Virus record (IMG/VR): IMGVR_UViG_3300031111_000011
Coordinates: 1 to 64,000 of that record
Source of the DNA: a virus
DNA length: 64,000 nt
Reading direction: 5' to 3' (one strand)
The position numbers and the translations under genes are program-made. Of the stretch, positions 22,702 to 50,025 are shown piece after piece (position 1 is the stretch's first letter; every line of letters begins with the position of its first letter). The notes beneath the pieces were generated by a model. That model saw nothing but the letters and a program-made list of their open reading frames with translations. It ran no database searches and had not been told where the DNA came from.

Positions 22702-22916
22702 TGAAACACGCAATCAAACGCCGGGTCTTTTTCTGGAGAAACTTCAACTTCGTGATGCGGGGTTTTCGTCGGCTGAGTACCCGGCTGGAGCGGATTCAGA
22801 AGGAGCGAAAAGCGGAACTCATCGCCATGGCAATCAAGATGAATGCCCTGGAGCGGGAACATGAGGACACGTCGGTGACCCTCAAGAACCTCAAGGAGAT
22901 GTTTCCGGCCCTGTAA
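22701..22916 (+). CDS. hypothetical basic protein (71 aa)
   Basis: TAATG overlap; trimmed from listed ORF 22476-22916. Confidence 0.45.
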   Translation: MKHAIKRRVFFWRNFNFVMRGFRRLSTRLERIQKERKAELIAMAIKMNALEREHEDTSVTLKNLKEMFPAL

Positions 22917-26422: not shown

Positions 26423-26438
26423 TTCTCAATATTGAAAA
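26423..26438. promoter_or_regulatory. palindromic element TTCTCA-atat-TGAAAA (family copy 6)
   Basis: Directly upstream of SD aaaaggagg of rtcB. Confidence 0.45.
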
Positions 26439-26446
26439 GGAGGACT

Positions 26447-28638: not shown

Positions 28639-28937
28639 AGCTGATCTGCTGTCCCTCTTGTTGGGACGTGTTCAAACTCGCCAAGGAAGAGCGCACCTGC
28701 TCATGCGGACGGTGCTCAGGCAGGTACCTCAACAACACCTACGCCGAGACAAATGGTGAGGGAATCAACCTCGCCATTGGCAACGGGTCACTCCTGCAAG
28801 CGGCTTACAACCTCGACCACTTTGCGAAGGACGCAGAGCGTCACGAGTTCATCGACCACAACCCCGTGATCTGTTGGGTCCGTCCTCCAGAAGGACCGGG
28901 AAACCCACACACCACTGTACGAAAGGAGGAATCATGA
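28635..28937 (+). CDS. Cys-rich protein (100 aa)
   Basis: ATGA overlap; CCPSC...CSCGRC cluster. Confidence 0.5.
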   Translation: MKLICCPSCWDVFKLAKEERTCSCGRCSGRYLNNTYAETNGEGINLAIGNGSLLQAAYNLDHFAKDAERHEFIDHNPVICWVRPPEGPGNPHTTVRKEES

Positions 28938-30322
28938 ACCCCATTCTGAATACTGACTCTTACAAAGCGAGTCATTACAGGCAGTACCCTGAAGATGTGG
29001 CCTGGGTGAGTTCCTATATCGAAGCACGGGGTGGAAAATACCCTGAGACGGTTTTCTTCGGGCTGCAAGCCTTCCTGAAGGAGTACCTAAGCAAACCCTT
29101 CACCCAGGCTCATATCAATGAGGCAGAGGACTTCTGGGAGGCTCACGGCCTCCCGTTCAATCGGGGAGGGTGGGAATACATCCTCGCCAGATACCGGGGC
29201 TATATGCCTATTTTGATCCAGGCGGTGGATGAGGGCTCGGTGGTTCCCACTGGCAATGTTCTTGTTCAGATTATTAACACTGACCCTGAAGTTCCCTGGA
29301 TCACCAGCTACGTGGAAACCGCTCTGCTCCGGGCAATCTGGTACCCCACCACGGTGGCTACCCTTTCCCACTTCTGCAAGCGAGATCTCTACAACTACTG
29401 GAAGGAGTCGAGTGACGCTCCTATTGAGTCCCTGGACTTCAAACTTCACGACTTCGGTGCTCGTGGGGTGAGTTCCCTGGAATCTGCTGGACTGGGTGGG
29501 ATGGCCCACCTCGTCAACTTCAAAGGCACCGATACGGTGGAAGGGGTTCTCGCTGCAAGACGGTACTACAACGAGCCCATGGCAGGATACTCAATCCCTG
29601 CTGCCGAGCACTCCACCATCTGCTCCTGGGGCGGTCCAGGACGAGAAATGGATGCCTTCCGAAACATGATCAGCCAGTTCGGTGGAGACTATCCACTGAT
29701 CGCTGTGGTCAGCGATTCGTACAATATCTGGGACGCAGTGGATAACAAATGGCCTTACCTGGATACCGAGATCAGTGCCAGTGGGTCCACCATCGTGGTC
29801 CGTCCGGACAGTGGAGATCCCCACATCGTACCTGTCGAGGTGATCAGCCGTCTCATGCAGAAGTTCGGATTCACGGTCAATAGCAAGGGCTACCACGTCC
29901 TTCCGGATCGAATTCGAGTTATCCAAGGCGACGGGATTACCGGCGATAGCCTGAATCGCATCCTGTTCAACCTCCGGATGAAGCGTCTCAGCATCGACAA
30001 TATTGCCTTTGGTATGGGTGGTGGGCTGCTCCAGCAGATCAACCGGGATACCTGCAAGTTCGCCATGAAGTGCAGTGCGGTTGCTGGCAAGAGCAACCAA
30101 TGGCAACCGGTGTTCAAGCAACCTGTGGATCAGCCTGACAAGGTGAGCAAAAAGGGTCGGCTGAACCTGATCCGGAACTCGGATGGTGAGTTCGAGACGG
30201 TCCCGGAGAAGTGGGAAGAGTCGCGGGGGGTTATGCCCATCCGGAGCATTAACGGGCTCCGCTACCACACCACAACTTTCGAGGAAATCCGGGGACGGGT
30301 CCAGGAGCACCTCATTGCTTAG
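28934..30322 (+). CDS. nadV: nicotinamide phosphoribosyltransferase (NAMPT/NadV, 462 aa)
   Basis: MNPILNTDSYKASHYRQYPE N-terminus and overall length typical of NAMPT; SD aaaggaggaatcATG. Confidence 0.85.
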   Translation: MNPILNTDSYKASHYRQYPEDVAWVSSYIEARGGKYPETVFFGLQAFLKEYLSKPFTQAHINEAEDFWEAHGLPFNRGGWEYILARYRGYMPILIQAVDEGSVVPTGNVLVQIINTDPEVPWITSYVETALLRAIWYPTTVATLSHFCKRDLYNYWKESSDAPIESLDFKLHDFGARGVSSLESAGLGGMAHLVNFKGTDTVEGVLAARRYYNEPMAGYSIPAAEHSTICSWGGPGREMDAFRNMISQFGGDYPLIAVVSDSYNIWDAVDNKWPYLDTEISASGSTIVVRPDSGDPHIVPVEVISRLMQKFGFTVNSKGYHVLPDRIRVIQGDGITGDSLNRILFNLRMKRLSIDNIAFGMGGGLLQQINRDTCKFAMKCSAVAGKSNQWQPVFKQPVDQPDKVSKKGRLNLIRNSDGEFETVPEKWEESRGVMPIRSINGLRYHTTTFEEIRGRVQEHLIA

Positions 30323-30821
30323 AGTCGGAGTCTTTGTTGGCAGATGCCAACCTTTCCACAAGGGGCATGAGCAGATCATCCGTCAGATGCTCCATGAACG
30401 TGGAACAGAGCGGTGTGTCATTCTCTTGGGGAGCATCAATGCTCCCCTTTCCGCTAAGAACCCTTTCCCCTACCCCACTCGTTATCAGTGGGTGAAGAAC
30501 ACCTTCCAGTATGTCCATGTCTTGGGCATTCCGGACTTCCCCGACAATGATGACTACTGGCTCTTCCATATCATGCAAGTTCTCAAGCTCCCTTACGTGG
30601 AGAGTGTTGACCCTTATTTCTACGTAGGCAGTGAGAGAGACGGTCGGGTCTACCACGAGCGTGGATTCACAACCATGATCGTTCCGCGCAGTAAGCAGTA
30701 CAGTGGGACTGAGATCCGAAGACGGCTTGCAGCCGGTGAGGACTTCAGTGAATTGGTGAGCGACCCTGAGTACGCTCAGTCAGTGAAGAGTGTGTGGGAC
30801 ACTGTGAAACATGCAATTTGA
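30315..30821 (+). CDS. nicotinamide/nicotinate mononucleotide adenylyltransferase (NMNAT, NadM-like, 168 aa, TTG start)
   Basis: Nucleotidyltransferase (H/T)xGH motif VGVFVGRCQPFHKGH; size fits archaeal/phage-type NMNAT; only in-frame start preserving the motif is TTG 30315 overlapping the nadV stop. Confidence 0.7.
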   Translation: MLRVGVFVGRCQPFHKGHEQIIRQMLHERGTERCVILLGSINAPLSAKNPFPYPTRYQWVKNTFQYVHVLGIPDFPDNDDYWLFHIMQVLKLPYVESVDPYFYVGSERDGRVYHERGFTTMIVPRSKQYSGTEIRRRLAAGEDFSELVSDPEYAQSVKSVWDTVKHAI

Positions 30822-34420: not shown

Positions 34421-34648
34421 TTAGTGGATGGGGTCACCAAGGAACACGTAGAAGGGCAAACCACAATGCTTACACCACGCATCCATGCCCCACGAACCAT
34501 CACCAAGTTCCCGGTACTCACCGACTTCAGTGATCATCTCAGAGCACTGGATGCACTCGATCTCGATGGATGCAACGGACATGTCGTCGGACATGTCCAC
34601 AGTCCCAATTTCCTGGCCGACCACATTAAGAGCTTTGTATTTTGTCAT
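34421..34648 (-). CDS. small Cys-containing protein coupled to integrase (75 aa)
   Basis: ATG overlaps the integrase stop (ATGA); CIQC...CKHC. Confidence 0.45.
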   Translation of the reverse strand: MTKYKALNVVGQEIGTVDMSDDMSVASIEIECIQCSEMITEVGEYRELGDGSWGMDAWCKHCGLPFYVFLGDPIH

Positions 34649-35940
34649 TAGCCCACCTTTCCGAAGAGGGGAATCACCTGGGCTGTCTTGGGTGCGTGGA
34701 CCCCGTCATCCTCCCAAGGATGGAACTGAGCAGCCCACTCATCGATGAGCCTCTTCCCCTCCTCCTTGAGGGTCTTCTCAAAGTGGATGTAGTCCTGGGT
34801 GATCAGTGCTCCCATCTGGATTGGGTCACCCTTCTTCTGGATCGTATGAGAGAGCATCACACTCACCAGACGTTCGTTCCCAGACACCTCATAGAGTTTG
34901 GTAGCCAGAGTGTGTCGGAACTTGTGGAAGGATTCACTCTCCTTCCTACTCTTGCCCTTCTGGACCCCAAACAACAGTTCCCTGGCCTGATTGATTGGTC
35001 GTCGAGAGTGCCATTTGAACCGGAACACCTTACCAGTGTATTTGGCCGATCCGTGTTTTTTGGACTGTACCAATTTAATAGCGTCCTTGACGATCTCAGG
35101 CATGTAGAACCATGCCCACTTCCCGTCATTCGGACCCTTTCGCAGGAACTTGAGGGTTCCTTCCTTCCAGTCGATCCGGTCCCACCACACTCCCACATCC
35201 TTCTTATGGTTCCCGTTCCCAGTGAGTTCATGGACTCGGAACCCCATGAAGAAGCCCAGGCAGACCTGGGCGTAAGCTTCGGCCCATCGGAGTCCATCCA
35301 CCCCCTCAGTTTGTCTGTACAGGAACCGTAGCAGCTTGGCTACTTCCTCATCCGTGAACGTCCGGACATCCTCCATCAATTCCTCCTCAGTAGGTTCGGT
35401 GCTGACAGGTTTGACCAGATCAGCCGGGTTAGCCCCGGCGTACAGACCCTCCCCAAGGGCAAACTTGTACAGGTTCCGGATCGTGCTGATGAAGGCGTTG
35501 ATCGTGGTCGGTGCGTAGTGCCCCTCCTTGACCAAAGCCCTCTGAAACACCCGGAGCTTGCCTGGGGTGATTGCCGCCAGGGGCTCATGTGCGAACCATT
35601 TCTTAAACCGCTGGTTGTACTTGGATTGGTAGTTCGGCACAGCCGATGCTCCCACCTTTTCCATGTGCTCCAGCCACAACTTGTACGCCCGACTGAAAGT
35701 GATCGCTTCGAGCTTGTCCGGGATGGCCTGTCCCAGTTTGAGCTTCTGAAGCATCTTATTCCGCTCCTCCTCAGCGATCTGAAGGGAGAATCCGTTGTCC
35801 TCCCTGCCCACCTGGAACCGCTTGTTCTTACCATCCACCTTCACCATGAAGCTGAAGGTCTTGCCATCCCTGCCGTGGTAGGTGTAACAGCCCCGGTGCC
35901 GCTTGCTTGCTACGTGTGTCCCGATTTTCCCCTTTGCCAT
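34648..35940 (-). CDS. int: tyrosine-type site-specific integrase (431 aa from SD-supported start)
   Basis: C-terminal catalytic motifs R...HKFRHTLAT...LSHT...Y; start set at MAKGK with SD aaaggaggtagaATG (listed ORF extends 23 codons further upstream without an SD). Confidence 0.85.
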   Translation of the reverse strand: MAKGKIGTHVASKRHRGCYTYHGRDGKTFSFMVKVDGKNKRFQVGREDNGFSLQIAEEERNKMLQKLKLGQAIPDKLEAITFSRAYKLWLEHMEKVGASAVPNYQSKYNQRFKKWFAHEPLAAITPGKLRVFQRALVKEGHYAPTTINAFISTIRNLYKFALGEGLYAGANPADLVKPVSTEPTEEELMEDVRTFTDEEVAKLLRFLYRQTEGVDGLRWAEAYAQVCLGFFMGFRVHELTGNGNHKKDVGVWWDRIDWKEGTLKFLRKGPNDGKWAWFYMPEIVKDAIKLVQSKKHGSAKYTGKVFRFKWHSRRPINQARELLFGVQKGKSRKESESFHKFRHTLATKLYEVSGNERLVSVMLSHTIQKKGDPIQMGALITQDYIHFEKTLKEEGKRLIDEWAAQFHPWEDDGVHAPKTAQVIPLFGKVG

Positions 35941-36107
35941 TCTACCTCCTTTCGTGGGGTAACAAACCCCGGTTTGATTGTGACTTTCTTGTGACTTTTG
36001 GCCCGTCATGACTTACTGCAATAATTCAATTTTTCAAGTCTGGGCAAATATAACAACTCCGCAAACCTTTGTCAATAGCGAACTTCTCGTGTGTTATCAG
36101 TACCTTC

Positions 36108-36260: not shown

Positions 36261-36587
36261 TTAGGAACCACCCTCTGGTTGGGCAGGTTGGATAATGGCT
36301 GGTGGAGTGGATGGTAGGACAACTGGGGGCAGTTCCTTGACCATCGTGAATCCCATACCCACAAGTCCAGCAATGAAAGCGGCCAGTCCACCGAACAGTA
36401 CCTTCCGCTGATTACCCCGGAGTGTGTCTACCTCACCCCTGAGATCCTCAATGTGAGCCCGGTTGGTCGCGCACCGACTCCATCCACCGTTATTGGCTTT
36501 GGCATGAATCTCATCCACCTTGCTCTGGACAGACATAAGCCTTTCGTCAATGCGAACCAGGAGTTCGCCCATCTCAGCAGGATTCAT
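36261..36587 (-). CDS. membrane-anchored protein with coiled-coil N-terminus and C-terminal TM (108 aa); lysis/spanin-like candidate
   Basis: TM LFGGLAAFIAGLVGMGFTMV then Pro-rich tail; ATGA overlap with upstream gene. Confidence 0.5.
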   Translation of the reverse strand: MNPAEMGELLVRIDERLMSVQSKVDEIHAKANNGGWSRCATNRAHIEDLRGEVDTLRGNQRKVLFGGLAAFIAGLVGMGFTMVKELPPVVLPSTPPAIIQPAQPEGGS

Positions 36588-36997
36588 TACACCCCCTTCT
36601 TGAGCGCCATGAAGTCAGCGATCTTGCGGTAACCGAAAGCAGATCCTACGGCGATGCCGAGCATCCATTGGTACCACTGTGGGCAGGTAGCCAGGGCAGC
36701 AAACCCGACTGTGACCCACCCTGCTCCGGTTGGAAAGAAACAGAGGATGGCAGGAATCGAAAGGACAATGGTAAACCATTCATCCTTCCACCCGCTCTGG
36801 TTGATGGAGGTGTTCTCCCAGGCGATGTCCCCCTGCTGTTGGGTGAGCATCTTATTAATGGTAGCTTCGGTTTTCGCCTCAGTCACCTTGACCTTGGATT
36901 CAACCTCCACCTCTTTGATACGTTGCCGATGTCGGAACCAATCTGTGACGGGGGCCATCAGACCCCCGACCAGATCACCAAGGATCTTACCGACCAC
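36587..36997 (-). CDS. putative holin/membrane protein (136 aa, C-terminal TM helices)
   Basis: Hydrophobic segments FTIVLSIPAILCFF, WVTVGFAALATC, MLGIAVGSAFGY; last of the structural cluster. Confidence 0.5.
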   Translation of the reverse strand: MVGKILGDLVGGLMAPVTDWFRHRQRIKEVEVESKVKVTEAKTEATINKMLTQQQGDIAWENTSINQSGWKDEWFTIVLSIPAILCFFPTGAGWVTVGFAALATCPQWYQWMLGIAVGSAFGYRKIADFMALKKGV

Positions 36998-39900
36998 TTC
37001 GTGACTCCTTCATAGTTTCCTTGATGATGTCGTGACGCTCCAGGATTAACAGGTCGATCTCTTCCCGCTTCTCCTGGGCAGTCATATCCTCATCAAGTTG
37101 GATAGCATCGATTTCCTTATTGATGGCTCTCACCTGTTTCATTGAGGCATTCATCAGTGGTCGGAGTTCGATCTTATCCTGGTTGTTGTCATAGTAGTTG
37201 TCAGCTTCAAGATCATCCTTTGCACTCCAAGATCTGAACGCTGTGTCTACCTCGGCAGCGAGGTCGTAGAACCGTTCGTAGTGCTTGGTGTACCCAGGAG
37301 TGTCGTGTCGCATCATTCCACCATTGAGCAGGTAGTAGTCCTCTTTTACGAGGGCTGGATCGGTTGGGAAGGACATCAGGTGCGGCATCACAATGTGGTC
37401 CGTCAGGGTGAGAGCGAGACGACCCACTGTTGCGAATTGGCTGTTGATGAAGTGGTCAAGGCGCTGTGGTGAAATAAACCCAGTGAGTTTACCAATGCCA
37501 CGAGCGGTCTTGCTGGTGCGGTGAGTCCACTGCATGTCAGGGTCAAGACTCTGTTTGCTCCGACTTACAATAGGAGCCCCCGTGTACCCGTCCTCACCCC
37601 CTTCACCGTCAGTCTGGGCCAGGACTTCCTCCATGAGAGGAGGAAAGCCAACTGCGAAGGTTTCCCGGAGGGTCTTCCAGGCAAACTTACCGACACTACC
37701 GTACTCACCTTCCTGCCAAGCTTCTGCCATGGCAGTTGGGAGTCCACTGAAGATCGCGCCTACCTCGAAAGGCATCGGGATCTGGAAGCGTTCTCCAAAG
37801 GCGTAGACATGGTAGTATCCCCACTTCTGGTGATACGGCAGATCACGATACTTGACCTTACGGTCTTCATCGTCATCGTGTGCCGTGTTCCATGCGTGGA
37901 GTGCCAGGGTCAGAGCCGAGAGCATTGCCCCTTTGTAGAGGATCTGCTTGCGGATCATCCCCAGAGCCCGTTTATCTTTACGGGCTTCACGAGCAAGTTT
38001 GTACAGACCCTGGATTCGAGCGTTGAGGAATGGGACCGTTCTTGTGAATACAGCAACGAATCCACTCTCTCCGCTCAGTCCGAAGTCCAGGATGTCCTTC
38101 GCTTCGAAAGCAGCCTCGAAGGAACTCTTGCCTTGAGCTTTTGTATTCTGGTAGAGGGCAACTCGCGTTGCCGACTCACTGAGCTCCATGAGCTTGCCCA
38201 GTTTACCTTCGCCCTTCATTGCCTTCTTGATTGCCTTCTGAGCACCCAGTGGATTGTCCGCACGGTAGTACCCACCAGAGAACCCACCACCCTGACTCAT
38301 CATCTCGACAACGTCTGGATGATTCCGCAGAGTAGCCCACATCCCCTTAGCCGTATCCACAACAGGAATGAACCCGTCCTTCATCACACCGGTAGCCATG
38401 GTGTCCCTGGTCATGTTTCGAACATGGAACCACGGGTTAGCGGTCACACCAAAGGTGAGCCCTCGCTTGAGTCCACCCATGATCTGGAAGACGGTGTTGT
38501 TCAGCCCCTTATGGTTAAGCTCCGTGAGAGCCTGGAACACATCGTTATCCTCGACCTTATAATACCGGGCCTTACCATCCACCCGAATCGAAATCAGATC
38601 GTTGCGTTTGGCAAGATCCTTCGGGTTACCCAGTACCCTGGTCATGAATGCCGATGTCCCCTTCTTCTCGCTCACCATGCCATTGGCTTTCAGTGAGTTG
38701 TAGAGCTTCTTGCGGGAGATGTTCTTGAGACTCTGGTCGATCAGGTACGTGTAGTTCATGACGAGATTCTCGATAGGATCACCGATCATCCCTTCCTTTT
38801 CACCTTCCTTGAGAGCCTTCACCGTACCCACGAACTTGTCGAGGGCTGTCGGTGCTTGGCTACCAAAGACCCCCTCTTCCTCCAGGTCGAAGACCCGGTT
38901 CAGAGGAATGTACACGTCCTTACGCCATGCCTTTTCCCATTCAGGATTCCAGATACCCGCCTTCCGGCAGAACTCTTTTACCGATTCATTATACTCCTTC
39001 AGGTGAGCCTTGACTTTGTCGTACTCACCGGCCTTGAGTTGATTATCAGCAGCCGCTCTGAGCTTTGCGATCTCAGCGTCAGTGTCGATGCCTTTACCAA
39101 AGATCCCGTCAGCAAACTCGCTACCTTTGACCCGTTTCAGTTCATCCACGGTGTCGGCAACAAGCCGAGCTTTGACGGCTTTCATGGTCTGGGCATCCAT
39201 ACCTTCAAACACACTGAGGAGCCCCTTCGAAGCATCCGGACGAGTAATGACCCAGTGGGTTGCCTTGTTGTACATTGGCTTGCCATGATGCAGGATCGTA
39301 CCCATGATTGCTGGCATCGATTGATGGAGACGACGGGACATGTACGCCGACATCTCAGCACCAACCCCAAGCTTCTCTTCGAGGGTCTTGAGCTTCCGGA
39401 ACCGGTCAACGCCCGTCAGGATTGTCCACTCCTTGAAGGCAGTGGCTGTGTCCACGGGATGACTCACTCCATCCAGGATCTTGGCAGCAGCACCCTTGAT
39501 GGTGTCCATCTTGGTTTTCCCCTCGCTCAGAGCGAGGTTCTTGGTAGCCTCATCCAGATCACGGGCCTTAGAATACTTACCCTTGATCCCTCGATCTTCA
39601 AGATGCTTGCGGTAAAGCTTATCCAACTCACTCTGGTCGCTGTAGAGCTTCTCAGGCAGGTTGAACTTCTTATGGAGTTGACCAATAGGGTCACCACCCG
39701 CCTCTCGTTTGAGGTATTCAAGCGGAGTCAGACCATCATGTTTCCATGGATTTCCTTTCACCTTAGTAGATCGGTGTTCAGTAAGGCCGTACTCGAAGTC
39801 GTATTTAAAGTCCTCCAGCGTTTTTCCTTGGGCTTCGGCAACGACCTTCATCCAGATAGCAGCCTGAACCTCTCTCGGGGACCACTCGTGATCAGTCTCC

Positions 39901-42900
39901 TCGCTGAGTTCATGAGCAAGTTGAAACAGCTTACGACGAGAAGCAGTATGCTCATCAGCCAGGAAGTTGGAGTCCAGAGTGGCAATCTCGAAGTTATGAG
40001 GAGCCTCTTCACCGTCCTTGAGAAGCCCTGCGTCCTTCCGCTCTCTGTACTCAGTCACCTCATTCCTGCTCTTGATGGCTGCGCGTACATTGGAAGCTGA
40101 GAGCAGAACGTGGCCGAAAAAGGCCCGATGCATCCACATATCATTCGTGGTTGCCTCAGTGTCACCTGTGAGAGCCCGGATAAACTCATCGACCTTATAA
40201 TTCTTGCTGAACGTCAGGTCGCCTGACAGAATCCGATCAAGGGCTTTCTTAACATTGGATGGGTATTTGCCTCCTGGTTTGTCACGCTTACCCATAAGGT
40301 AGAGGTACGTGTCCACCGCAAACTGGGTGTTGGTAGTAGCCTTCGCGTTAGGCGAAGTGAGCCCAAGGAGAATGTTGAAGAGAGGGGCATCCTTACCGAA
40401 GACCCTCTTAACTGTCTCCTGGTGGTTACTATACCATGTGACGGCTCGTGGGTTCTCCACGAGAACCTGCTTACACCAGTCCTTGTACTCTTTGTCAGTG
40501 TGTTTAAACTCACTCCACTCTCGCATATCCTTATGGATCAGCCGGTTCTTAGCAACCTCAAGGAGGTTGTCGATGTCCTTCATAGTAAGGGACACTTTGT
40601 CATCCGAGAACCCCATCACCTTTTTCAGCCATGCGTTCATGAACTCAAGGAACTTCTGGAAAACTTGCTTGCGCTTCATCGGGTTAAGTTTTTCGGCCCG
40701 ACGAGCGATCACCTCTTCGACAATGAGTCGGCGTTTCTCGATCTCCTTCTGTTCAGGAGTGAGGTCTTTCCGACCAGCGATATTCTTAAGGTCATCAGCA
40801 TAGAGATCCTTGACCTCCGCGTAAGCCTTCTTGGATTTCCTGATAGCAACATAAGCGCTGTCAAGGAACTCCTTGAAGAGTTTACCCGCCTCGTCCTTGG
40901 TGCTGCGAGTGTCAAACAGCTTGAGAAGCCCCCGGTGACCCACTTGCTCGTGGAGCCACACTTGGGTTGCACGTTTGGTGTCAGACAGACTGTCGGCCAC
41001 AAAGTAGATCTTGTCGGCCTCTTCATCCCACACTGCTTCCACACGGACCCCATTATTGGTGTCCTCTTTGGAGAGACGGTGCTTCTCAGGAAGCTGGTCA
41101 TGAGACTCAACCAATTCAATCTTGGCACCGCGACTACCCACCAGCTTCTGGAGTGTGTGGAGCTTGTCAAAGATCTGCTTTGAGGACTCTTTCTTGAGTT
41201 TACTCCGAGCCATCTTAGCAGCCTTGCTGTAACGAGGATTCCCTTCCTCGTCGTACTTCAGAGGGGTCTTCCTGTCGTTTGTCCCTTCAGGAGCAACATT
41301 CCCCGAACTATCCTCTTCGTAGGTCACACCTTCCTTGAGATCGTGTTTGACTTTAACCTTGCCCGATCCCTCGTACTTCTTCCTACCCCACTCCCTAAGA
41401 GGTTTCTCCTCAACCTCCCAGGTTCCATCAGCCTGTTCCACTGGCTGGTGCGTAAGTGGGTCTTCAAATTTCCGGATAGCTCGTTTGGCTGCTTCCTTGT
41501 TCTTATAGACCTTGCCTACGGTCTTGCTGACCGTAGGGGCTGGTTCGGATGTGACATTCGACGGAACATTTTCAACCTGCTTAGACTTCGGAGTGAGGAT
41601 TTCCTTGGTCTTGTCACCCAGGCCGAGCTCCATGTTGGCTTTCTCAGCCAGAGCCTCAGCGTCAGCTTTACGTTGAGCATCGACCTTCCTGCTTTCCTCA
41701 GCGGCTTTCCGTTTTTCAACAGCAGCTACCTGGGAAGGATGGAGGGCTGGTTTCGCCTCAAGCTTTGCGCCTTCTTTTTGGAAGAAGGCAGCATCGCTCT
41801 TGGCCTTCTGATCCACGACCTTGGCTTGTTGACTTTGTTGTTCTGCCTCGATGCCAGAGCGCACCTCTCCCGCCATCTGGGATTTCTGGACAGATCGTTT
41901 TTGCTCACTTGCCCGTTTAGTAGTCGCTGCTTTCTCAGCGATCTCAGCACGGGCTTTCTCGTTGGCACGAGCTTCACGTTCAGCCTTCCCTCGTGTCGTA
42001 GAAGGGTTCCCAGGTTGTTTACTTGCTTCCTTACGCGCCTGTTCCTGACGAGCTTGAACCTCAAGACGATCCACTTGCTCTTCGAGACGTTGGGCAAGAC
42101 CATCTGTGAGGACACCCATCCGAGGATCTCCAGTGGATGCTTTGAGAGCACTCAGGTCGTACATGACTCCCTTGAGTTTTGGGATACTCTCCTCACCAAC
42201 CACGAGAGCCCGGTGAGCAGCACGGAGAGACTTGGCAGCAGCCTTGTGCTCCTTAACCTCACTACCTTCCAGAGCGGGGAGCATGTTGTGGACAGCACCC
42301 ATCAGCCCTTTCGGAGTAGACACAAAGTCAACGAACTGCTGGAACTTATCTCGTTCCGCAGCAGCAGCGTCCATCTGAGCTTCACGGTTCGCACGTTGAA
42401 GTTGCTCCTCCTGCATACGAGCCTCAGCAGCCATGGTCGCTTCGATCTGGCGCTGACGATCACGAGCAGTCTGTTGACGGGCTACCTCAGCCTCTGCTTG
42501 GAGTTGTTCCTTGGTTTTCGCCTCGACCTTTTCTTCAGTAGATCCTCCAACACTGAAGGCTCCAGCGTCCTCCTCGACCTTGATTCCACCTTGGTCATCA
42601 TCCTTAGCAAAAGCCGTATCCAAATCTTCAGGAACTGAAGGCGCAGTTGTCTTGTTGGTTTCCGCATCAGCATTGGTTTCACCCTCCGCATCTGCTTCGG
42701 TTTGTTTCTTTGCCTTGACATGGGCGATGACATCGAATGGAGCTTTCACAGCAACACCGGCACCTGGGAGAAGCATACCGCCCACTGCACCGATCTTCAT
42801 GCTCTCGTTCCGGGAAGCTTTGAACTCCTCAGAACCTACCACCTCTTTGAAATCGTCAATGAGTTCCCCAACAGGAGCATCAGGGTTGGCCGCATACACA

Positions 42901-43694
42901 TCAGCAGCAGCCTCAGTGTACGCCTGGATTCCTTCTTCAAGACCCTCTCCAGCAGCACCTTGCATAAGCTTGCCGATGTAGAGCTTGAGCTTGTCACCCA
43001 TTTTCAGGGATTTTCCGAAGGCTCCTGCGACACGCTTCAGTGAGTTGATTTGGAGAAGGTTCCCGGCCATTTCAGCAGGGGTTCCAAGGGCAGCGTGAAT
43101 CAGAGCAGCATTGAACCGCACGTCCTCATCCTCGATCCCCTTGTCAATGAGATCCTTGTCCTTTTCCCCCATCATCTGCATGAAGGTAGTGGCTGTTCCG
43201 ACTGGAGCACTGAGTGCAGACGCAACCATAGAGGCACCATAGCGGCTCAGGCCAACACCAGCTTCTTCGATGGTTCCGAGAATGGTCCCTTTTTTGGAAG
43301 GGTCCATTTCATCCACTTTGTCTGGAAGGGCTTCTTCTACAGAGCCAATGTCCTCAACAGCTTGTTTACGCTTTGCTGTGTGTGGGTCATCCTGCGCAGC
43401 TTCAGCGGATCGCTTACGCATCTGAGCAAGATATCCACCGGAATTTAGTTCGACAGGCTTACCATCAAGGGTCCGATCCTGGAGCACCTTTGTGCCGTGG
43501 ATTGCATCTGAAAGGCCAACCCCAAGGGATTGGCCCATTCGTTTCAGGGCACCTGAGTGTTCTTCTTCGGGTTCGGATGTATTGAGTTGCTCGATCTCAG
43601 ACTCATCCACGTCCTCGATCACAAAGGTTTGTGTTTTTGGTTTTTCAGCTTCAAACTCGTCTTGATCGATATCCTCAATAATGAACTTTGCCAC
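36987..43694 (-). CDS. giant internal virion/ejection protein (2235 aa), T7 gp16-like position
   Basis: Acidic N-terminus, glycine-zipper-like hydrophobic patch, long coiled coils; follows two gp14/gp15-like proteins. Confidence 0.7.
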   Translation of the reverse strand: MAKFIIEDIDQDEFEAEKPKTQTFVIEDVDESEIEQLNTSEPEEEHSGALKRMGQSLGVGLSDAIHGTKVLQDRTLDGKPVELNSGGYLAQMRKRSAEAAQDDPHTAKRKQAVEDIGSVEEALPDKVDEMDPSKKGTILGTIEEAGVGLSRYGASMVASALSAPVGTATTFMQMMGEKDKDLIDKGIEDEDVRFNAALIHAALGTPAEMAGNLLQINSLKRVAGAFGKSLKMGDKLKLYIGKLMQGAAGEGLEEGIQAYTEAAADVYAANPDAPVGELIDDFKEVVGSEEFKASRNESMKIGAVGGMLLPGAGVAVKAPFDVIAHVKAKKQTEADAEGETNADAETNKTTAPSVPEDLDTAFAKDDDQGGIKVEEDAGAFSVGGSTEEKVEAKTKEQLQAEAEVARQQTARDRQRQIEATMAAEARMQEEQLQRANREAQMDAAAAERDKFQQFVDFVSTPKGLMGAVHNMLPALEGSEVKEHKAAAKSLRAAHRALVVGEESIPKLKGVMYDLSALKASTGDPRMGVLTDGLAQRLEEQVDRLEVQARQEQARKEASKQPGNPSTTRGKAEREARANEKARAEIAEKAATTKRASEQKRSVQKSQMAGEVRSGIEAEQQSQQAKVVDQKAKSDAAFFQKEGAKLEAKPALHPSQVAAVEKRKAAEESRKVDAQRKADAEALAEKANMELGLGDKTKEILTPKSKQVENVPSNVTSEPAPTVSKTVGKVYKNKEAAKRAIRKFEDPLTHQPVEQADGTWEVEEKPLREWGRKKYEGSGKVKVKHDLKEGVTYEEDSSGNVAPEGTNDRKTPLKYDEEGNPRYSKAAKMARSKLKKESSKQIFDKLHTLQKLVGSRGAKIELVESHDQLPEKHRLSKEDTNNGVRVEAVWDEEADKIYFVADSLSDTKRATQVWLHEQVGHRGLLKLFDTRSTKDEAGKLFKEFLDSAYVAIRKSKKAYAEVKDLYADDLKNIAGRKDLTPEQKEIEKRRLIVEEVIARRAEKLNPMKRKQVFQKFLEFMNAWLKKVMGFSDDKVSLTMKDIDNLLEVAKNRLIHKDMREWSEFKHTDKEYKDWCKQVLVENPRAVTWYSNHQETVKRVFGKDAPLFNILLGLTSPNAKATTNTQFAVDTYLYLMGKRDKPGGKYPSNVKKALDRILSGDLTFSKNYKVDEFIRALTGDTEATTNDMWMHRAFFGHVLLSASNVRAAIKSRNEVTEYRERKDAGLLKDGEEAPHNFEIATLDSNFLADEHTASRRKLFQLAHELSEETDHEWSPREVQAAIWMKVVAEAQGKTLEDFKYDFEYGLTEHRSTKVKGNPWKHDGLTPLEYLKREAGGDPIGQLHKKFNLPEKLYSDQSELDKLYRKHLEDRGIKGKYSKARDLDEATKNLALSEGKTKMDTIKGAAAKILDGVSHPVDTATAFKEWTILTGVDRFRKLKTLEEKLGVGAEMSAYMSRRLHQSMPAIMGTILHHGKPMYNKATHWVITRPDASKGLLSVFEGMDAQTMKAVKARLVADTVDELKRVKGSEFADGIFGKGIDTDAEIAKLRAAADNQLKAGEYDKVKAHLKEYNESVKEFCRKAGIWNPEWEKAWRKDVYIPLNRVFDLEEEGVFGSQAPTALDKFVGTVKALKEGEKEGMIGDPIENLVMNYTYLIDQSLKNISRKKLYNSLKANGMVSEKKGTSAFMTRVLGNPKDLAKRNDLISIRVDGKARYYKVEDNDVFQALTELNHKGLNNTVFQIMGGLKRGLTFGVTANPWFHVRNMTRDTMATGVMKDGFIPVVDTAKGMWATLRNHPDVVEMMSQGGGFSGGYYRADNPLGAQKAIKKAMKGEGKLGKLMELSESATRVALYQNTKAQGKSSFEAAFEAKDILDFGLSGESGFVAVFTRTVPFLNARIQGLYKLAREARKDKRALGMIRKQILYKGAMLSALTLALHAWNTAHDDDEDRKVKYRDLPYHQKWGYYHVYAFGERFQIPMPFEVGAIFSGLPTAMAEAWQEGEYGSVGKFAWKTLRETFAVGFPPLMEEVLAQTDGEGGEDGYTGAPIVSRSKQSLDPDMQWTHRTSKTARGIGKLTGFISPQRLDHFINSQFATVGRLALTLTDHIVMPHLMSFPTDPALVKEDYYLLNGGMMRHDTPGYTKHYERFYDLAAEVDTAFRSWSAKDDLEADNYYDNNQDKIELRPLMNASMKQVRAINKEIDAIQLDEDMTAQEKREEIDLLILERHDIIKETMKESRSGR

Positions 43695-43705
43695 TGTAGT
43701 CCTCG

Positions 43706-46448: not shown

Positions 46449-48368
46449 TTATTTCCCCATTATAATCCAGGCCACTTGCCCGTCTGTAGAAAGAGACGGG
46501 GAAGTACCAAGTACAACAGTTCCAGAAACACTCGGCAAAATAACTCGGTAATAATATGTCGGGGATGCAGGAGGAGATAGAAAGGAAGTTGTCGTTCCGT
46601 TACTCCAAGTAGAGCACCACGAACTGATTGTGATGTAAACCCTCATATGGGTAATAGCCGACGCTTGAGTTCCTGTATCAAAAGAAACCAAAAGCTGGTC
46701 CGGACCAAAAACCCCCGGCCCGTTAGTACCAGTGTTTGTGCCACTACCACAAGTGGTCCACGATGACCCATTGTTCAGAGAGTACTGAACATATGCCGAG
46801 TACGTGCAGTTGCGGGTTCTGTAGTAAAGCCATGTCGGGTGTGACCCATCAGGAGCCTCATATCGCCCGTAGACCATAAATACGAGATTCGTACCATAAA
46901 ATCTTCGGACATCAGAAATATGCACTGGATCATCGGCAGCAGCGCCGGAACTACTTGGCCCGTAGTACGTGCCAGATTGGGCAGAAGACCCCTCAACGAA
47001 TCTGTCTGTATCAGCGCTGTTCGGATAAACAGTTGATCCAAGTTCGAGAGTTGCTACTACGTCGAACTCCCACTTAGCGGGTGAACCGGCGCTGTAGCCA
47101 CTTTGTCTCTGAACATTCATCGGCTGGAGATTGAAAGTCTGGTCGTACCCGCTATACGTTTGATCGTAGACTGGCACGATCTTCGGCATGAGCATAATCT
47201 TCGGTTGCTCAATGAACAGGGTATCAGGTTGAACCGTATCCCCGTTGTCTGCTTCCCCATATTCAATACCAGTGACCATACCTTGCGTAGCATGGAGCCC
47301 AGTAGTGGTATCATAGTACTTCTGAGAAATTTGGCCCTCATCGATCAGGACATAGTTCTGACCCGAAATTCCTCCATTTGGGGCAACAATAATCCGTCCC
47401 TCAGTATCCCCATTATCGCTCGTTTCGATAATGACATTGCTGTCACCGAAGGTGGCTTTCCCTCCTTCAGAGAGGTTGATCTCGGCAGAGGCATTGAACT
47501 CATCACCAGTGAATGTTCCAGCCTTGACGTGTCGAGCCAGGATCGTGTCATCGACAATGAGATTCCCGTCAATGGCTACTGTAGGAGTCCCGTCAACATC
47601 ACCGGTCATGAGGATTCCAGCACGTTCCCAATACGCTGTGTCTGTGCCGGGAAGTTTAGGGTCAGCAGATCCATTGGCCTGGATACACCGGTACCGGCGA
47701 ACAGAGGTTCCGGTGGTCACCTTCACCAGATCCGACACGGAGTACTCATTCCCGCTGTTGTACTCACTTGGATCTGTCCCCTTCAGGATGTCCACAACAC
47801 CATCGATGGTTTCACCAATGGATTCGTCCCCCGGAATCACATACCCACCTTGAGAGGGTCTTGGGGTCCAGGGGCTGTACACACCGGAGTAAGCAATGGC
47901 CCGAATCCAGTAGTAGTGGTCGTTCGTGTAGTCACCAAAGGAGTGTTCGTAGGTGTTGGCTGGACCTGTGACAATCGCCACACGGGTGGCTGAAGTCACA
48001 CTGTCGGTAGTGTTCACCCATACTTCGATATGGCTAAAGTGGACGTCTGTTGGGTTAGTCCACGAGAGGTGGTTCTTCCACACACCCTTAGTTATGGAGA
48101 GATTGGTAGGAGAATTGATCGGAGAGGAGTCAGCAATGAGTGTGTCGTCCTGATCCTTAGTGAGTCCGAGTGAGGTGTAAGCTGAGGCTGCTTCGAGGTT
48201 ATCGTAGGTGACGAAGCGGTCCCCGCTTTCCCCACGGGTGCCTTCACGAGTCTCCACCACCTCCTTGAGTGCAAGGAGAAAGTTCTGGAGTTCGGGTGAG
48301 GCATCCGCAGGGACATCAGGAATTGGAGGGAGGTTAGACATGTGATAGCTCCACTGGAGACGCCGCAA
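46449..48368 (-). CDS. tail fibre/receptor-binding protein with fibronectin-III-like domain (639 aa)
   Basis: FN3-like VWKNHLSWTNPTDVHFSHIEVWVN; Gly/Ser/Thr-rich beta-rich C-terminus. Confidence 0.65.
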   Translation of the reverse strand: MRRLQWSYHMSNLPPIPDVPADASPELQNFLLALKEVVETREGTRGESGDRFVTYDNLEAASAYTSLGLTKDQDDTLIADSSPINSPTNLSITKGVWKNHLSWTNPTDVHFSHIEVWVNTTDSVTSATRVAIVTGPANTYEHSFGDYTNDHYYWIRAIAYSGVYSPWTPRPSQGGYVIPGDESIGETIDGVVDILKGTDPSEYNSGNEYSVSDLVKVTTGTSVRRYRCIQANGSADPKLPGTDTAYWERAGILMTGDVDGTPTVAIDGNLIVDDTILARHVKAGTFTGDEFNASAEINLSEGGKATFGDSNVIIETSDNGDTEGRIIVAPNGGISGQNYVLIDEGQISQKYYDTTTGLHATQGMVTGIEYGEADNGDTVQPDTLFIEQPKIMLMPKIVPVYDQTYSGYDQTFNLQPMNVQRQSGYSAGSPAKWEFDVVATLELGSTVYPNSADTDRFVEGSSAQSGTYYGPSSSGAAADDPVHISDVRRFYGTNLVFMVYGRYEAPDGSHPTWLYYRTRNCTYSAYVQYSLNNGSSWTTCGSGTNTGTNGPGVFGPDQLLVSFDTGTQASAITHMRVYITISSWCSTWSNGTTTSFLSPPASPTYYYRVILPSVSGTVVLGTSPSLSTDGQVAWIIMGK

Positions 48369-50025
48369 TGAGAAGACGATCTACCTGGGGCTTTCCTTCG
48401 AGTTGGAATTCCCAGTCATTGGGTCGGGAACCAGCGGGTAGCCGAAACATTTTCTCATCGCTAATTGTAGCTGTGTGAACAAGAGATCCGTTCAGGTAGA
48501 CCTTCAGGGTCAGATTCCCGTTTGTGAAATCCCCGTGGACACGACCACAACTGTAAAGGTTGCGGTCTTCAAAGACCTTTGATTTCCAAGTGAAGTCCTT
48601 GTACCCAGTGCCACCTTCCCACTTACGGATCGAGTAGGTGGTCCCACTCTTATCCACCACATAGAGGTCGTTCTGGTCTGGGTGGATGAATCCGCAGTAG
48701 ATAGGATCACCTCCTGTGACGTCGATCAGGGAGGGTGTGTCTGCCATGTCAATGACGATCCCGGTGTTGGTCCCTTGGAAAAACCCGTAGTAGGAGTCGT
48801 CGTAGAAGAACCCAATCAGTGTCTCAGGACTGAGGGCTCTCCACTGTTTTGCAGTGAAAATCGCTTCAGTAGCGTTAACAGCTTGACCAGCGCTTGTGAC
48901 TTGGTACAGACCTTCAGGGGATGGATAGAAGACTCCATACGGTGATGAAACGAGCCCTCGTTTGCTGAGGCACTTCTGTTTCACCTCGATCCGCTTCTTC
49001 GTCATGGTGCTTGGGTCAGAACCCTGGATGATATACGGGTAAGCATCCGTAGCGACCACCAGAGTTGAGCCATGTACGCCCAGAGCGACGATCTCGTAGT
49101 CAACCGTATGTCGGTATGCTTCAGGCCATGCGTATGGAATATGGGGCTCTGAGACGCAGACTTCTTGCCCAGAAAATCCCGCCAGGATTCCGTTCTGAAA
49201 CTGGATCAAACCGGCCATGTCGCTCGGTGGCACAACCCAAGACTCTGTTGGACACACTTCTCCGAGATCCGAGGTCAGGGCTGTGGGAGAGGAATCATCG
49301 TCGGCATCATAGACGTAGATTTCGTCAGATGTGACAAGAGTAGCCGGGATATCCCAAACGGGAGTTCCGGAGAGGTTTACAGGACGTGCCTTTACCAGTT
49401 GGTAGGCAGCAGTCCCAGAAGTGCCAGTAAGAAGGCGATACAGGCGAAAATGAGTGATATCGTTTCCATTGGACACCAGAGTTGGTTTCACAAAACCCTT
49501 GAGCCGGATGTGTTGATCTTCCTCCAGAGTACTCACACCAGTTACGGGACTTGGGGCAGACTCCTCACCCCAGGCTGTCACATAAGTATAGATGTAGGAG
49601 TAGGTCACACCCAGTTCCCCGCTACCGGTGCCTTGAGGCTCTACGGTGAGAGCAGCGTCCGGAGGGACAACTCCGAGTCGGCGGGTTTCAGTTGGGTAGG
49701 TGGAAGCTGCCCCGGACGTTGCCAGGGTCAGGTTGGTCTGTTTCGGGTACCCGTCCCCTGTGAAATACGACCGATAATCAGAGTCTTGGACCTGGGCTTT
49801 TACCACATCCACATCTGAGTCCCAGGCAAGCCATGCGGTGTTCAGTTTGTGAACGGTTCGGATGTCTCCCGCCTGGGCAACCGTTTGGATCAGACTCAGA
49901 TCTTTGATTGGCTTGAGATTCCCCGACTGGAGGTCACAGTTAGTGGCGACCTGGGCGAGGTTGCTTTCGAGCAGTTTGGCTGAGATCCGTGGGATTCGTT
50001 TCCCAAAGACGGTAACATCGATCAT
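48334..50025 (-). CDS. tail protein (563 aa; tail tubular protein B-like position)
   Basis: Large beta-rich protein between gp11-like and fibre genes. Confidence 0.55.
   Translation of the reverse strand: MIDVTVFGKRIPRISAKLLESNLAQVATNCDLQSGNLKPIKDLSLIQTVAQAGDIRTVHKLNTAWLAWDSDVDVVKAQVQDSDYRSYFTGDGYPKQTNLTLATSGAASTYPTETRRLGVVPPDAALTVEPQGTGSGELGVTYSYIYTYVTAWGEESAPSPVTGVSTLEEDQHIRLKGFVKPTLVSNGNDITHFRLYRLLTGTSGTAAYQLVKARPVNLSGTPVWDIPATLVTSDEIYVYDADDDSSPTALTSDLGEVCPTESWVVPPSDMAGLIQFQNGILAGFSGQEVCVSEPHIPYAWPEAYRHTVDYEIVALGVHGSTLVVATDAYPYIIQGSDPSTMTKKRIEVKQKCLSKRGLVSSPYGVFYPSPEGLYQVTSAGQAVNATEAIFTAKQWRALSPETLIGFFYDDSYYGFFQGTNTGIVIDMADTPSLIDVTGGDPIYCGFIHPDQNDLYVVDKSGTTYSIRKWEGGTGYKDFTWKSKVFEDRNLYSCGRVHGDFTNGNLTLKVYLNGSLVHTATISDEKMFRLPAGSRPNDWEFQLEGKPQVDRLLIAASPVELSHV

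What the first reader, a model, noticed from the sequence alone, without database searches (positions are those of the whole stretch)
36987..43694. 2235-aa giant internal virion protein
At about 6.7 kb this single gene is a tenth of the window and much larger than T7 gp16 (1318 aa).
- It has an acidic N-terminus, a glycine-zipper-like patch, long coiled coils and a central region with HEQVGH.
- It has no embedded lysozyme domain; the transglycosylase is encoded separately at 25332.
- It may carry additional enzymatic or toxin-like passengers delivered into the host with the DNA.
Basis: partly seen in the sequence, partly recalled or inferred. Interest (0 to 1): 0.5.

Follow-up and report, generated by a model that had tools for sequence, protein, structure and literature searches.

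The report
Giant phage polyvalent virion protein
This 2235-residue phage gene is real and belongs to the known class of giant "polyvalent" proteins that relatives carry in the virion; its cargo appears to be a self-processing metallopeptidase plus an uncharacterised domain that looks like a DNA-glycosylase.

Summary
The ORF (36987-43694, minus strand, 2235 aa, GTG start with a GAGGA ribosome-binding site) is real. Two assemblies recover it, and metagenomic relatives are collinear with it along its length. It is the last large gene of a podovirus-type structural module.

It is not a T7 gp16 homologue. It is a phage-type "large polyvalent protein" defined by a ~800-aa C-terminal module containing LPD38. 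That module lies at the extreme C-terminus in 149 of 149 relatives. It occurs in proteins found in virions by mass spectrometry (JC1 gp69, phi24B gp47) and in an essential gene (PTXU04 gp25). It has no solved structural relative.

Solo DUF7178 genes lie in arrays of small unannotated ORFs that look like phage early regions.

Verdict: a new member of a known kind, with one possibly new cargo enzyme.

The parts
36987..43694 (-). Whole gene: 2235-aa large polyvalent protein (stop codon included)
   Evidence: ORF list and translation. The identical product is in two assemblies. Relatives P0040, P0065 and P0048 are collinear along its length.
43700..43704 (-). Ribosome-binding site GAGGA, 5 nt upstream of the GTG start (43692-43694)
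   Evidence: Read directly from the sequence.
43545..43694 (-). Acidic N-terminus (aa 1-50; 17 D/E, 3 K/R)
   Evidence: Composition script.
42531..43379 (-). Conserved N-terminal module (aa ~106-388), function unknown. It includes the Gly-rich, mildly hydrophobic patch at aa 298-316 (nt 42747-42803).
   Evidence: Iterated HMM finds it at the N-terminus of 23 giant relatives. Conserved G166, G176, E250, E254 and Q257. No Pfam, PHROG or NCBIfam match. Not modelled.
41550..42527 (-). Charged A/E/K/Q/R-rich linker (aa ~390-715), probably helical, coiled-coil or disordered
   Evidence: 56% AEKQR. Poorly conserved between relatives. Coiled coil was not formally tested.
41367..41534 (-). Small conserved domain (aa 721-776)
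   Evidence: Found in 5 relatives. BLAST gives 45-58% identity to P0047, P0056 and P0062. There is weak internal similarity between aa 747-815 and aa 1259-1327.
40548..41129 (-). Domain A: zincin-like metallopeptidase of the HEXXXH type (aa ~856-1049). HEQVGH is at nt 40935-40952 and E993/E994 at nt 40713-40718.
39570..40472 (-). Domains B+C: DUF7178 plus its C-terminal extension (aa ~1075-1375), an all-alpha region with a predicted HhH-GPD (DNA-glycosylase-like) fold. The motif G-x-K1167...(18)...D1185-x-W-M-x-R1190 is at nt 40125-40202.
36990..39407 (-). C-terminal family-defining module (aa ~1430-2235). It contains Pfam LPD38 (aa 1948-2105; nt 37380-37853).
36587..36997 (-). Downstream 136-aa gene (phrog_2524, unknown function). 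Its GTG start overlaps the last 11 nt of the giant gene, so it is probably co-translated in the same operon.
   Evidence: ORF list, PHROG match, and the same gene call in both contigs.

Best explanation
The gene encodes a phage-type large polyvalent protein of the LPD38 class.

Proposed mechanism:
1. It is made late, with the structural proteins.
2. A few copies are packed inside the capsid, most likely through the conserved ~800-aa C-terminal module. This step is inferred.
3. It is expelled through the portal and tail into the host at the start of infection, with the DNA. This step is also inferred.
4. Once delivered, or already inside the head, the HEXXXH zincin-like metallopeptidase (aa ~856-1049) is predicted to cut the polypeptide into working pieces.
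5. One piece is the DUF7178 domain (aa ~1075-1375). It is predicted to have an HhH-GPD fold with a Lys/Asp pair placed as in endonuclease III. It most likely acts as an N-glycosidase or AP-lyase on DNA, or on a nucleotide, before any phage gene is expressed. Its role would be counter-defence, host-DNA attack, or repair of the incoming genome.

The C-terminal module is the indispensable part and probably contributes to genome delivery itself.

Shown here: the ORF, its domain boundaries, family membership, conserved residues, predicted folds and gene context.
Inferred: packaging, ejection, proteolysis, glycosylase chemistry and target.
For: Family and gene context:
- LPD38 at 83.9 bits against a cut-off of 27.
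- More than 190 relatives share only the C-terminal module. Their N-terminal cargo varies: methylase-helicase, ART, DdrB-ParB, GGDEF, zeta toxin, SLT, glucosaminidase.
- The module is C-terminal in 149/149 relatives.
- The gene is last in the structural module here and in PTXU04, Pony and the P0002 contig.

Virion location and importance of relatives:
- JC1 gp69 gave 51 peptides from CsCl-purified virions.
- phi24B gp47 is abundant by proteomics but absent from the cryo-EM map.
- PTXU04 gp25 is essential by CRISPRi-ART.
- LPD38 is restricted to phage-type polyvalent proteins.

Peptidase:
- H915, E916, H920 and E994 are invariant in the 23-sequence alignment A1 and 97-99% conserved across 99 domain copies.
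- The model has zincin topology.
- The HEXXXH clade and its proposed processing role are published.

Glycosylase-like domain:
- The K..D..R motif and its helix-hairpin-helix placement fit the superfamily.
- hhalign independently finds the same register.
- Six complete solo DUF7178 genes lie in strings of small ORFs that look like phage early regions. One is next to an S-AdoMet lyase gene.
Against: - There is no direct evidence that this protein is in the virion or is cleaved.
- The C-terminal module has no structural or functional precedent, so its role is guesswork.
- The phage also encodes a separate internal virion protein (phrog_511, 48334-50025), so the giant need not form the ejection channel.
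- The alignments behind both models are shallow (21 and 18 sequences).
Confidence: 0.62

Rival explanations
1. The protein is mainly a structural ejection ('ejectosome') protein. After release it builds or extends the trans-envelope channel for DNA entry, as T7 gp14/15/16 and P22 gp7/16/20 do. The peptidase would attack the cell wall or mature the channel, and the other domains would be scaffolding rather than effectors.
For: - PTXU04 gp25 is essential, which suits a delivery component better than an accessory anti-defence factor.
- The phi24B authors propose exactly this for gp47.
- The C-terminal module is large, helical and invariably terminal.
- The N-terminal module carries a Gly-rich, mildly hydrophobic patch.
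Against: - No transmembrane-grade segment exists; the maximum Kyte-Doolittle score is 1.35.
- A separate phrog_511 internal virion protein is encoded nearby.
- The strictly conserved catalytic-looking residues in domains A and B argue for enzymes.
- Relatives swap this region for obvious effectors such as ART, zeta toxin or methylase.
- The two readings are not exclusive.
Confidence: 0.25
2. DUF7178 is not a DNA glycosylase. It could be a non-catalytic helix-hairpin-helix DNA-binding or end-protecting module. It could instead be a nucleotide or nucleoside N-glycosidase like the queuine-salvage enzyme DUF2419/Qng1, or simply an unrelated all-helical fold.
For: - There is no sequence-profile link to HhH-GPD.
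- Foldseek is negative.
Against: - K1167 (106/109), D1185 (109/109), W/H at D+2 and R at D+5 reproduce the EndoIII K120...D138-T-H-I-F-R143 pattern with the same 18-residue spacing and secondary-structure placement. A purely binding module would not need this.
Confidence: 0.3
3. The 6.7-kb ORF is an artefact, a frameshift or assembly fusion of two or more genes.
For: Only its unusual size and the weakly conserved low-complexity linker at aa 390-715.
Against: - Identical ORFs come from two different assemblers or records.
- Composition is uniform.
- Relatives of 2088-2465 aa (P0040, P0065, P0048) align collinearly from aa ~50 to ~2229.
- More than 190 relatives of 1900-5000 aa exist.
Confidence: 0.02

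Closest known systems
Escherichia phage PTXU04 gp25 (2198 aa, 'putative polyvalent protein')
   Same: - Similar size.
- tblastn alignment over our aa 1440-2226 at 25% identity.
- It is the last gene of the structural module.
- It was shown to be essential by CRISPRi-ART.
   Different: Only the C-terminal module aligns. The neighbouring genes are not detectably homologous. Nothing is known of its cargo.
Stx phage phi24B gp47 (2811 aa; LPD5, LPD1, LPD38, MuF-C metallopeptidase)
   Same: - An LPD38-bearing giant with a metallopeptidase.
- It is abundant in the virion by proteomics but invisible in the reconstruction.
- The authors propose it to be an ejection protein.
   Different: It carries a different peptidase family (MuF-C, HEXXH) and different N-terminal domains. 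No DUF7178 is reported. I did not align it directly.
Bcep22 gp75 / JC1 gp69 'DarB-like' proteins (~4500 aa)
   Same: LPD38 lies near the C-terminus (JC1 aa 4195-4401), the gene is at the end of the morphogenesis module, and the protein was detected in CsCl-purified virions.
   Different: These proteins are twice as long and carry an LT-like lysozyme, an N6-adenine methylase, an SNF2-type helicase and LPD3. None of these is present here.
HEXXXH clade of zincin-like MPTases of polyvalent proteins (Iyer et al. 2017)
   Same: An HEXXXH helix plus a Glu on the following helix, embedded mid-protein between other domains, with a predicted autoprocessing role.
   Different: No Pfam model recognises this version. 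I could not compare it with the authors' alignment, so clade identity rests on the motif and fold.
HhH-GPD DNA glycosylases (endonuclease III, Ogg/AGOG, MagIII, MutY) and the queuine-salvage enzyme DUF2419
   Different: - No significant sequence-profile similarity.
- No Fe-S cluster cysteines; the whole protein is 0.1% Cys.
- Trp mostly replaces His at D+2.
- It sits in a virion polyprotein or in phage early operons, not in repair contexts.
T7 gp16 (1318 aa internal core/ejection protein; established knowledge)
   Same: A very large protein of a short-tailed phage, presumed to lie inside the capsid and to be ejected.
   Different: - No sequence match to any PDB chain, which would include the solved T7 ejection proteins.
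- No N-terminal lytic transglycosylase domain.
- Different gene position and architecture.
- This is an analogy, not homology.

Membership tests
Phage-type large polyvalent proteins with LPD38 (Iyer et al. 2017; Pfam PF18857) | LPD38 domain above Pfam's gathering score | tested here: met
   83.9 bits against a cut-off of 27, aa 1948-2105; 88.6 bits when the segment is scanned alone.
Phage-type large polyvalent proteins with LPD38 (Iyer et al. 2017; Pfam PF18857) | Two or more domains of disparate biochemical activity in one polypeptide | tested here: met
Phage-type large polyvalent proteins with LPD38 (Iyer et al. 2017; Pfam PF18857) | Encoded among virion genes of a phage with a portal-terminase packaging system | tested here: met
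   TerL, portal, major capsid protein, internal virion protein and tail fibre lie upstream on the same strand.
Phage-type large polyvalent proteins with LPD38 (Iyer et al. 2017; Pfam PF18857) | Packaged in the capsid and injected with the DNA | not testable with these tools
   Known only for relatives: JC1 gp69 and phi24B gp47 by proteomics.
Zincin-like metallopeptidase (HEXXXH polyvalent clade) | Two His and the catalytic Glu on one helix, with a third ligand Glu on the next conserved helix | tested here: met
   H915, E916 and H920 are 98-99% conserved, E994 97% and E993 83%. They lie on model helices 77-91 and 151-173.
Zincin-like metallopeptidase (HEXXXH polyvalent clade) | Core fold: an N-terminal helix, a three-stranded sheet and two C-terminal helices | tested here: met
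Zincin-like metallopeptidase (HEXXXH polyvalent clade) | Zinc binding and proteolytic activity | not testable with these tools
   -
HhH-GPD superfamily (DNA glycosylases) | Two-lobed all-alpha fold | tested here: inconclusive
HhH-GPD superfamily (DNA glycosylases) | Helix-hairpin-helix, then a Gly/Pro-rich loop and an invariant catalytic Asp; a Lys in the HhH for bifunctional enzymes | tested here: met
   The family motif is G-x-K1167 (106/109) ... G1177-D ... D1185 (109/109)-x-[W/H]-[M/I]-x-R. K-to-D spacing is 18, as for E. coli Nth K120 and D138. hhalign aligns these residues. Their placement on the model helices fits.
HhH-GPD superfamily (DNA glycosylases) | Recognised by the family's sequence profile (Pfam PF00730) or significant profile-profile similarity | tested here: not met
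   No PF00730 hit in 21 members at E<=10. HH probability is 0.2-1.3%. No PDB chain is found by HMM. The template profiles available here were very shallow.
DUF7178 (Pfam PF23802) | Score above the gathering threshold | tested here: met
   31.7 bits (300-aa segment) and 29.3 bits (571-aa segment) against a cut-off of 27. The whole-protein scan gave 26.6.
T7 gp16-type internal core protein | Sequence or fold similarity to gp16; an N-terminal lytic transglycosylase | tested here: not met
P1 DarB-like antirestriction protein (methylase + helicase) | N6-adenine methyltransferase and SF2 helicase domains | tested here: not met
   Neither domain is found here, although both are present in many LPD38 relatives.

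The most novel reading that the evidence does not exclude
DUF7178 may be a catalytically active, highly divergent HhH-GPD N-glycosylase/AP-lyase that phages deploy at the very first moment of infection. It would be injected as cargo of a virion polyvalent protein, as here, or expressed from the first early genes in its solo forms. Possible roles are cutting bases out of host DNA, removing a defence-imposed base modification, or repairing the incoming genome. That would be a new class of early phage effector. It would travel on an ~800-aa C-terminal delivery module whose fold has no solved relative.
Probability: 0.33. Interest if true: 0.7.

Novelty: new member of a known kind. Interest (0 to 1): 0.42.

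Why it matters
Giant LPD38 proteins take up 10-20% of many podophage genomes, and one of them is essential. Yet neither the conserved C-terminal module nor most of the cargo has a known function.

This example is comparatively small and simple: one peptidase and one putative enzyme. That makes it a good test case for two questions.
- What the 800-aa module does: capsid targeting, ejection or channel building.
- Whether phages inject a DNA-glycosylase-like enzyme ahead of gene expression.

DUF7178 is not mentioned in any paper of the searched library. It occurs in more than 100 sequence clusters, both inside giants and as solo genes in what look like phage early regions. A functional assignment would therefore annotate many phage genes at once.

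Tried and rejected
Searches that found nothing:
- megablast of the gene against deposited phages gave no match.
- An indexed protein search with aa 820-1430 alone returned nothing, not even the query itself, which is a tool limitation.
- PDB sequence searches with the whole protein and with both domain profiles gave nothing meaningful.
- NCBIfam gave nothing.
- tblastn of DUF7178+C against phages and plasmids gave no match.
- Foldseek against the PDB for the middle model gave no significant hit.
- hhalign of the DUF7178 profile against single E. coli Nth gave probability 0.2%.

Searches that did not serve their purpose:
- A metagenome scan for Nth relatives, meant to deepen the template, returned only sequences at least 89% identical, so it was useless for that purpose.
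- Genome contigs held no close relative of the giant. The C-module alignment was too diverse to scan with. The HEXXXH pattern retrieved only distant peptidase domains in Desulfovibrio, Microbulbifer, Oceanospirillaceae and Bacteroidales genomes, which gave no host clue.
- Neighbour genes showed no BLAST homology to those flanking the giants of PTXU04 or Pony.

Ideas rejected or downgraded:
- A classical HEXXH protease motif is absent.
- Transmembrane segments are absent.
- The gene is not a DarB-like methylase-helicase.
- The gene is not a fusion artefact.
- Not every short DUF7178 hit is a genuine solo protein; at least P0063 is a fragment on a 742-bp contig.
Full report
**Observation**

The window holds a single uninterrupted reading frame at 36987-43694 on the minus strand. 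It is 2235 codons long, starts at a GTG, and has a GAGGA motif 5 nt upstream, 11 nt after the stop codon of the preceding gene.

At this base composition an ORF of this length has a chance probability of about 1e-43.

- The N-terminus is acidic, with 17 D/E against 3 K/R in 50 residues.
- A Gly-rich patch at aa 298-316 is the most hydrophobic stretch but is not membrane-grade.
- A long A/E/K/Q/R-rich region spans aa ~390-715.
- HEQVGH lies at aa 915-920. It is HEXXXH rather than HEXXH.

No lysozyme-type domain is detected.

The 'separate transglycosylase at 25332' is not confirmed. That ORF matches only an unknown-function PHROG family and no Pfam family, although it has an SLT-like ES...GVVQM motif by eye.

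- The same product is called on a Logan contig and on a 67-kb ENA contig.
- Relatives of 2088-2465 aa align collinearly from the N-terminal module to the last residues.

**Context**

The minus-strand block from about 61.6 kb down to 36.3 kb reads as a podovirus-type late operon. In order it contains:
- large terminase;
- a 978-aa protein with an InlB-type repeat;
- portal, a scaffold-like protein and the major capsid protein;
- two virion proteins;
- a phrog_511 'internal virion protein';
- tail fibre;
- three unknown ORFs;
- the giant gene;
- two small ORFs, the first overlapping the giant's stop codon.

A tyrosine-integrase gene follows. The portal is 30-36% identical to those of HMO-2011-type and Roseobacter CRP podophages, Pseudomonas phage Rollin and Rhizobium RHph phages.

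**Family**

Only the last third of the protein (aa ~1430-2235) is widely conserved.
- It contains Pfam LPD38 (E 2e-23) and matches two unknown-function PHROG families.
- tblastn finds it at 23-29% identity in phages of Vibrio, Aeromonas, Achromobacter, E. coli (PTXU04, Pondi), Bacillus (Page/Pony group), Pelagibacter and Planktothrix.
- Protein searches find more than 190 proteins of 1900-5000 aa.
- In 149 of 149 relatives the module sits at the extreme C-terminus.
- The parts in front of it differ from protein to protein. They include N6-adenine methylase plus SNF2 helicase, ART-PolyVal, DdrB-ParB, GGDEF, zeta toxin, inorganic pyrophosphatase, SLT, glucosaminidase and MuF-C.

This is the definition of the 'polyvalent proteins' of Iyer et al. 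(2017). They list LPD38 among domains found only in the phage type, and they argue that these proteins are packaged and injected.

Experimental support exists for relatives:
- JC1 gp69 (4515 aa, LPD38 at aa 4195-4401) gave 51 unique peptides from CsCl-purified virions.
- phi24B gp47 (2811 aa) is abundant by proteomics but absent from the cryo-EM map.
- PTXU04 gp25 (2198 aa) is essential in a CRISPRi-ART screen.

In PTXU04, Pony and the contig carrying P0002, the giant gene likewise closes the structural module just before the lysis or early genes.

**Anatomy of the non-conserved two thirds**

An exhaustive HMMER search with aa 715-1430 found 180 relatives and resolved separate evolutionary units:
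1. An N-terminal module (aa ~106-388) shared by 23 giants.
2. A variable charged linker.
3. A small domain (aa 721-776).
4. Domain A (aa ~856-1049).
5. Domain B, which is DUF7178 (aa ~1075-1205), followed by its usual partner, domain C (aa ~1240-1375).

The closest full-length relatives are P0040 (2188 aa, 38-40% identity in the aligned regions) and P0065.

**Domain A**

- H915, E916 and H920 are 98-99% conserved and E994 97% across 99 domain copies. All four are invariant in the 23-sequence alignment A1.
- No Pfam model recognises the domain in any relative.
- Iyer et al. describe exactly this: a set of polyvalent-protein metallopeptidases whose motif is HEXXXH, with the third ligand Glu on the next helix, proposed to process the polyprotein.
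- An AlphaFold2 model of aa 830-1400 (21-sequence alignment, mean pLDDT 80) gives the zincin order: helix, three strands, the HEXXXH helix, then the Glu helix.

I therefore read HEQVGH as the active site of a known, if poorly annotated, peptidase clade.

**Domains B and C**

These form an all-alpha unit modelled at pLDDT mostly above 90.

Evidence for an HhH-GPD-like fold:
- Over 109 family members the motif is G-x-K1167 (106/109)-[VI]-x-x-F-x-R-A-L-x-G1177-D-x-x-A-[VT]-[VT]-x-D1185 (109/109)-x-[W/H]-[M/I]-x-R1190.
- E. coli endonuclease III reads G-R-K120...G131...I-A-V-D138-T-H-I-F-R143. It has the same 18-residue Lys-Asp spacing, the same H/W at D+2, the same I/M at D+3 and the same R at D+5.
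- In the model, K1167 opens the second helix of a helix-hairpin-helix. D1185 N-caps the next helix after a Gly-Asp loop.
- hhalign between the family profile and a three-sequence EndoIII alignment chose exactly this segment as its only local alignment. It placed K1167, D1185 and R1190 on K120, D138 and R143.

Evidence against:
- That hhalign alignment has a pairwise E of only 0.039 and an HH probability of 1.3%.
- Foldseek against the PDB found nothing, best E 0.33.
- Pfam's HhH-GPD model hits none of 21 members, even at E<=10.
- The HMM profile finds no PDB chain.

The assignment is therefore a fold-plus-motif prediction, which I put at roughly 55-60%. Catalytic glycosylase or lyase activity I put at about 35-40%.

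On prior description: the word 'glycosylase' does not occur in Iyer et al., and 'DUF7178' occurs in no paper of the library.

Complete solo DUF7178 genes of 180-208 aa exist. The five with usable flanking sequence sit in strings of small unannotated ORFs typical of phage early regions. One is immediately followed by an S-AdoMet lyase gene, and another is the first gene of an operon running to recT. This fits a function needed at the very start of infection, whether the domain is delivered in the virion or made first. At least one apparent solo hit is only a contig fragment.

**C-terminal module**

- The model (18-sequence alignment, pLDDT 73, pTM 0.73) is a compact, mostly helical body with a few hairpins and a long terminal helical hairpin.
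- There is no PDB sequence relative.

Its role is inferred from its invariable terminal position, its presence in virion proteins and the essentiality of PTXU04 gp25. The candidates are capsid incorporation, ejection or channel formation.

**Mechanism proposed**

- Late synthesis (shown by gene context).
- Incorporation into the capsid through the C-terminal module (inferred).
- Ejection with the DNA (inferred by class).
- Cleavage by the HEXXXH peptidase (inferred from the published hypothesis and conserved catalytic residues).
- Action of the released DUF7178 domain on DNA bases or nucleotides (inferred from predicted fold and motif).

**Rivals**

- A mainly structural ejectosome role is compatible with the essentiality data, and I consider it partly true.
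- A non-catalytic or Qng1-like role for DUF7178 remains open.
- An artefact is excluded.

**Comparison and novelty**

The protein works like, and passes the testable membership criteria of, LPD38-type polyvalent proteins. It is not a member of the T7 gp16 or P1 DarB families, because their defining domains were tested for and are absent.

Within its class it is short and lacks the usual cargo. It carries an N-terminal module and a DUF7178 unit that have not been described in the literature searched.

I rate it a new member of a known kind. The finding as first stated is moderately ordinary. The glycosylase-like cargo and the structurally orphan delivery module are the parts worth following.

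Noticed in passing
window 28874-30322 (+) and 30183-30821 (+): These ORFs look like a nicotinamide phosphoribosyltransferase (phrog_448, E 7e-150) and an overlapping cytidylyl/NMN-adenylyltransferase-like ORF. Together they resemble a phage NAD+ salvage pair of the kind reported to counter NAD-depleting defences. That link is from my own knowledge and was not checked.
   Followed up: no
window 25859-26383 (+); also L106 7925-8401: This ORF carries a dATP/dGTP diphosphohydrolase N-terminal domain (PF18909, E 8e-21). It lies next to a ribonucleotide reductase (22916-24823) and an RtcB-type ligase (26432-27661). The same Pfam family appears downstream of a solo DUF7178 gene in an unrelated contig. 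This could hint at nucleotide-pool or base-modification chemistry linked to DUF7178.
   Followed up: partly
It does contain AQES...GVVQME, which resembles the SLT catalytic motif. The mechanical ORF runs from 24690, so the true start is uncertain.
   Followed up: partly
window 57109-60045 (-): A 978-aa ORF lies between the large terminase and the portal region. It has no PHROG match and only a divergent InlB B-repeat (Flg_new_2, aa 649-719). This is an unusual position for so large a gene.
   Followed up: no
window 34648-36009 (-) and the strand switch near 34.0-34.6 kb: A tyrosine-integrase-like gene (phrog_1, E 6e-31) lies about 1 kb downstream of the giant gene's operon, so the phage is probably temperate. 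GC skew changes sign at the same place.
   Followed up: no
ENA contig k141_1898663 (L004) compared with the window: In the 67,073-bp ENA contig the giant gene ends about 600 bp from a contig end. The window has about 37 kb beyond that point. The genome is therefore probably circular or circularly permuted, of about 67 kb, and essentially complete.
   Followed up: no
giant protein aa 747-815 against aa 1259-1327 (nt ~41250-41456 and ~39714-39920): There is weak internal similarity: 30% identity over 70 aa, pairwise E 8e-4. An iterated domain-C HMM also hits aa 731-856. This could be a degenerate duplicated half-domain upstream of the peptidase, or it could be HMM drift.
   Followed up: partly
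L006 5361-6494, 20260-21916 and 23208-24257: In the contig carrying relative P0002, IS605-family TnpB/OrfB genes and a Y1 transposase flank the giant gene on both sides.
   Followed up: no
L103 1185-2164: A solo DUF7178 gene is immediately followed by an S-AdoMet lyase gene (PF23780). DUF7417 recurs near solo DUF7178 genes in L103 and L109.
   Followed up: partly
tool behaviour: The indexed protein search with aa 820-1430 returned no hit at all, not even the identical protein P0001. The exhaustive search found 180 relatives with aa 715-1430, which covers the same region. Negative results from the indexed search should not be trusted for this region.
   Followed up: yes
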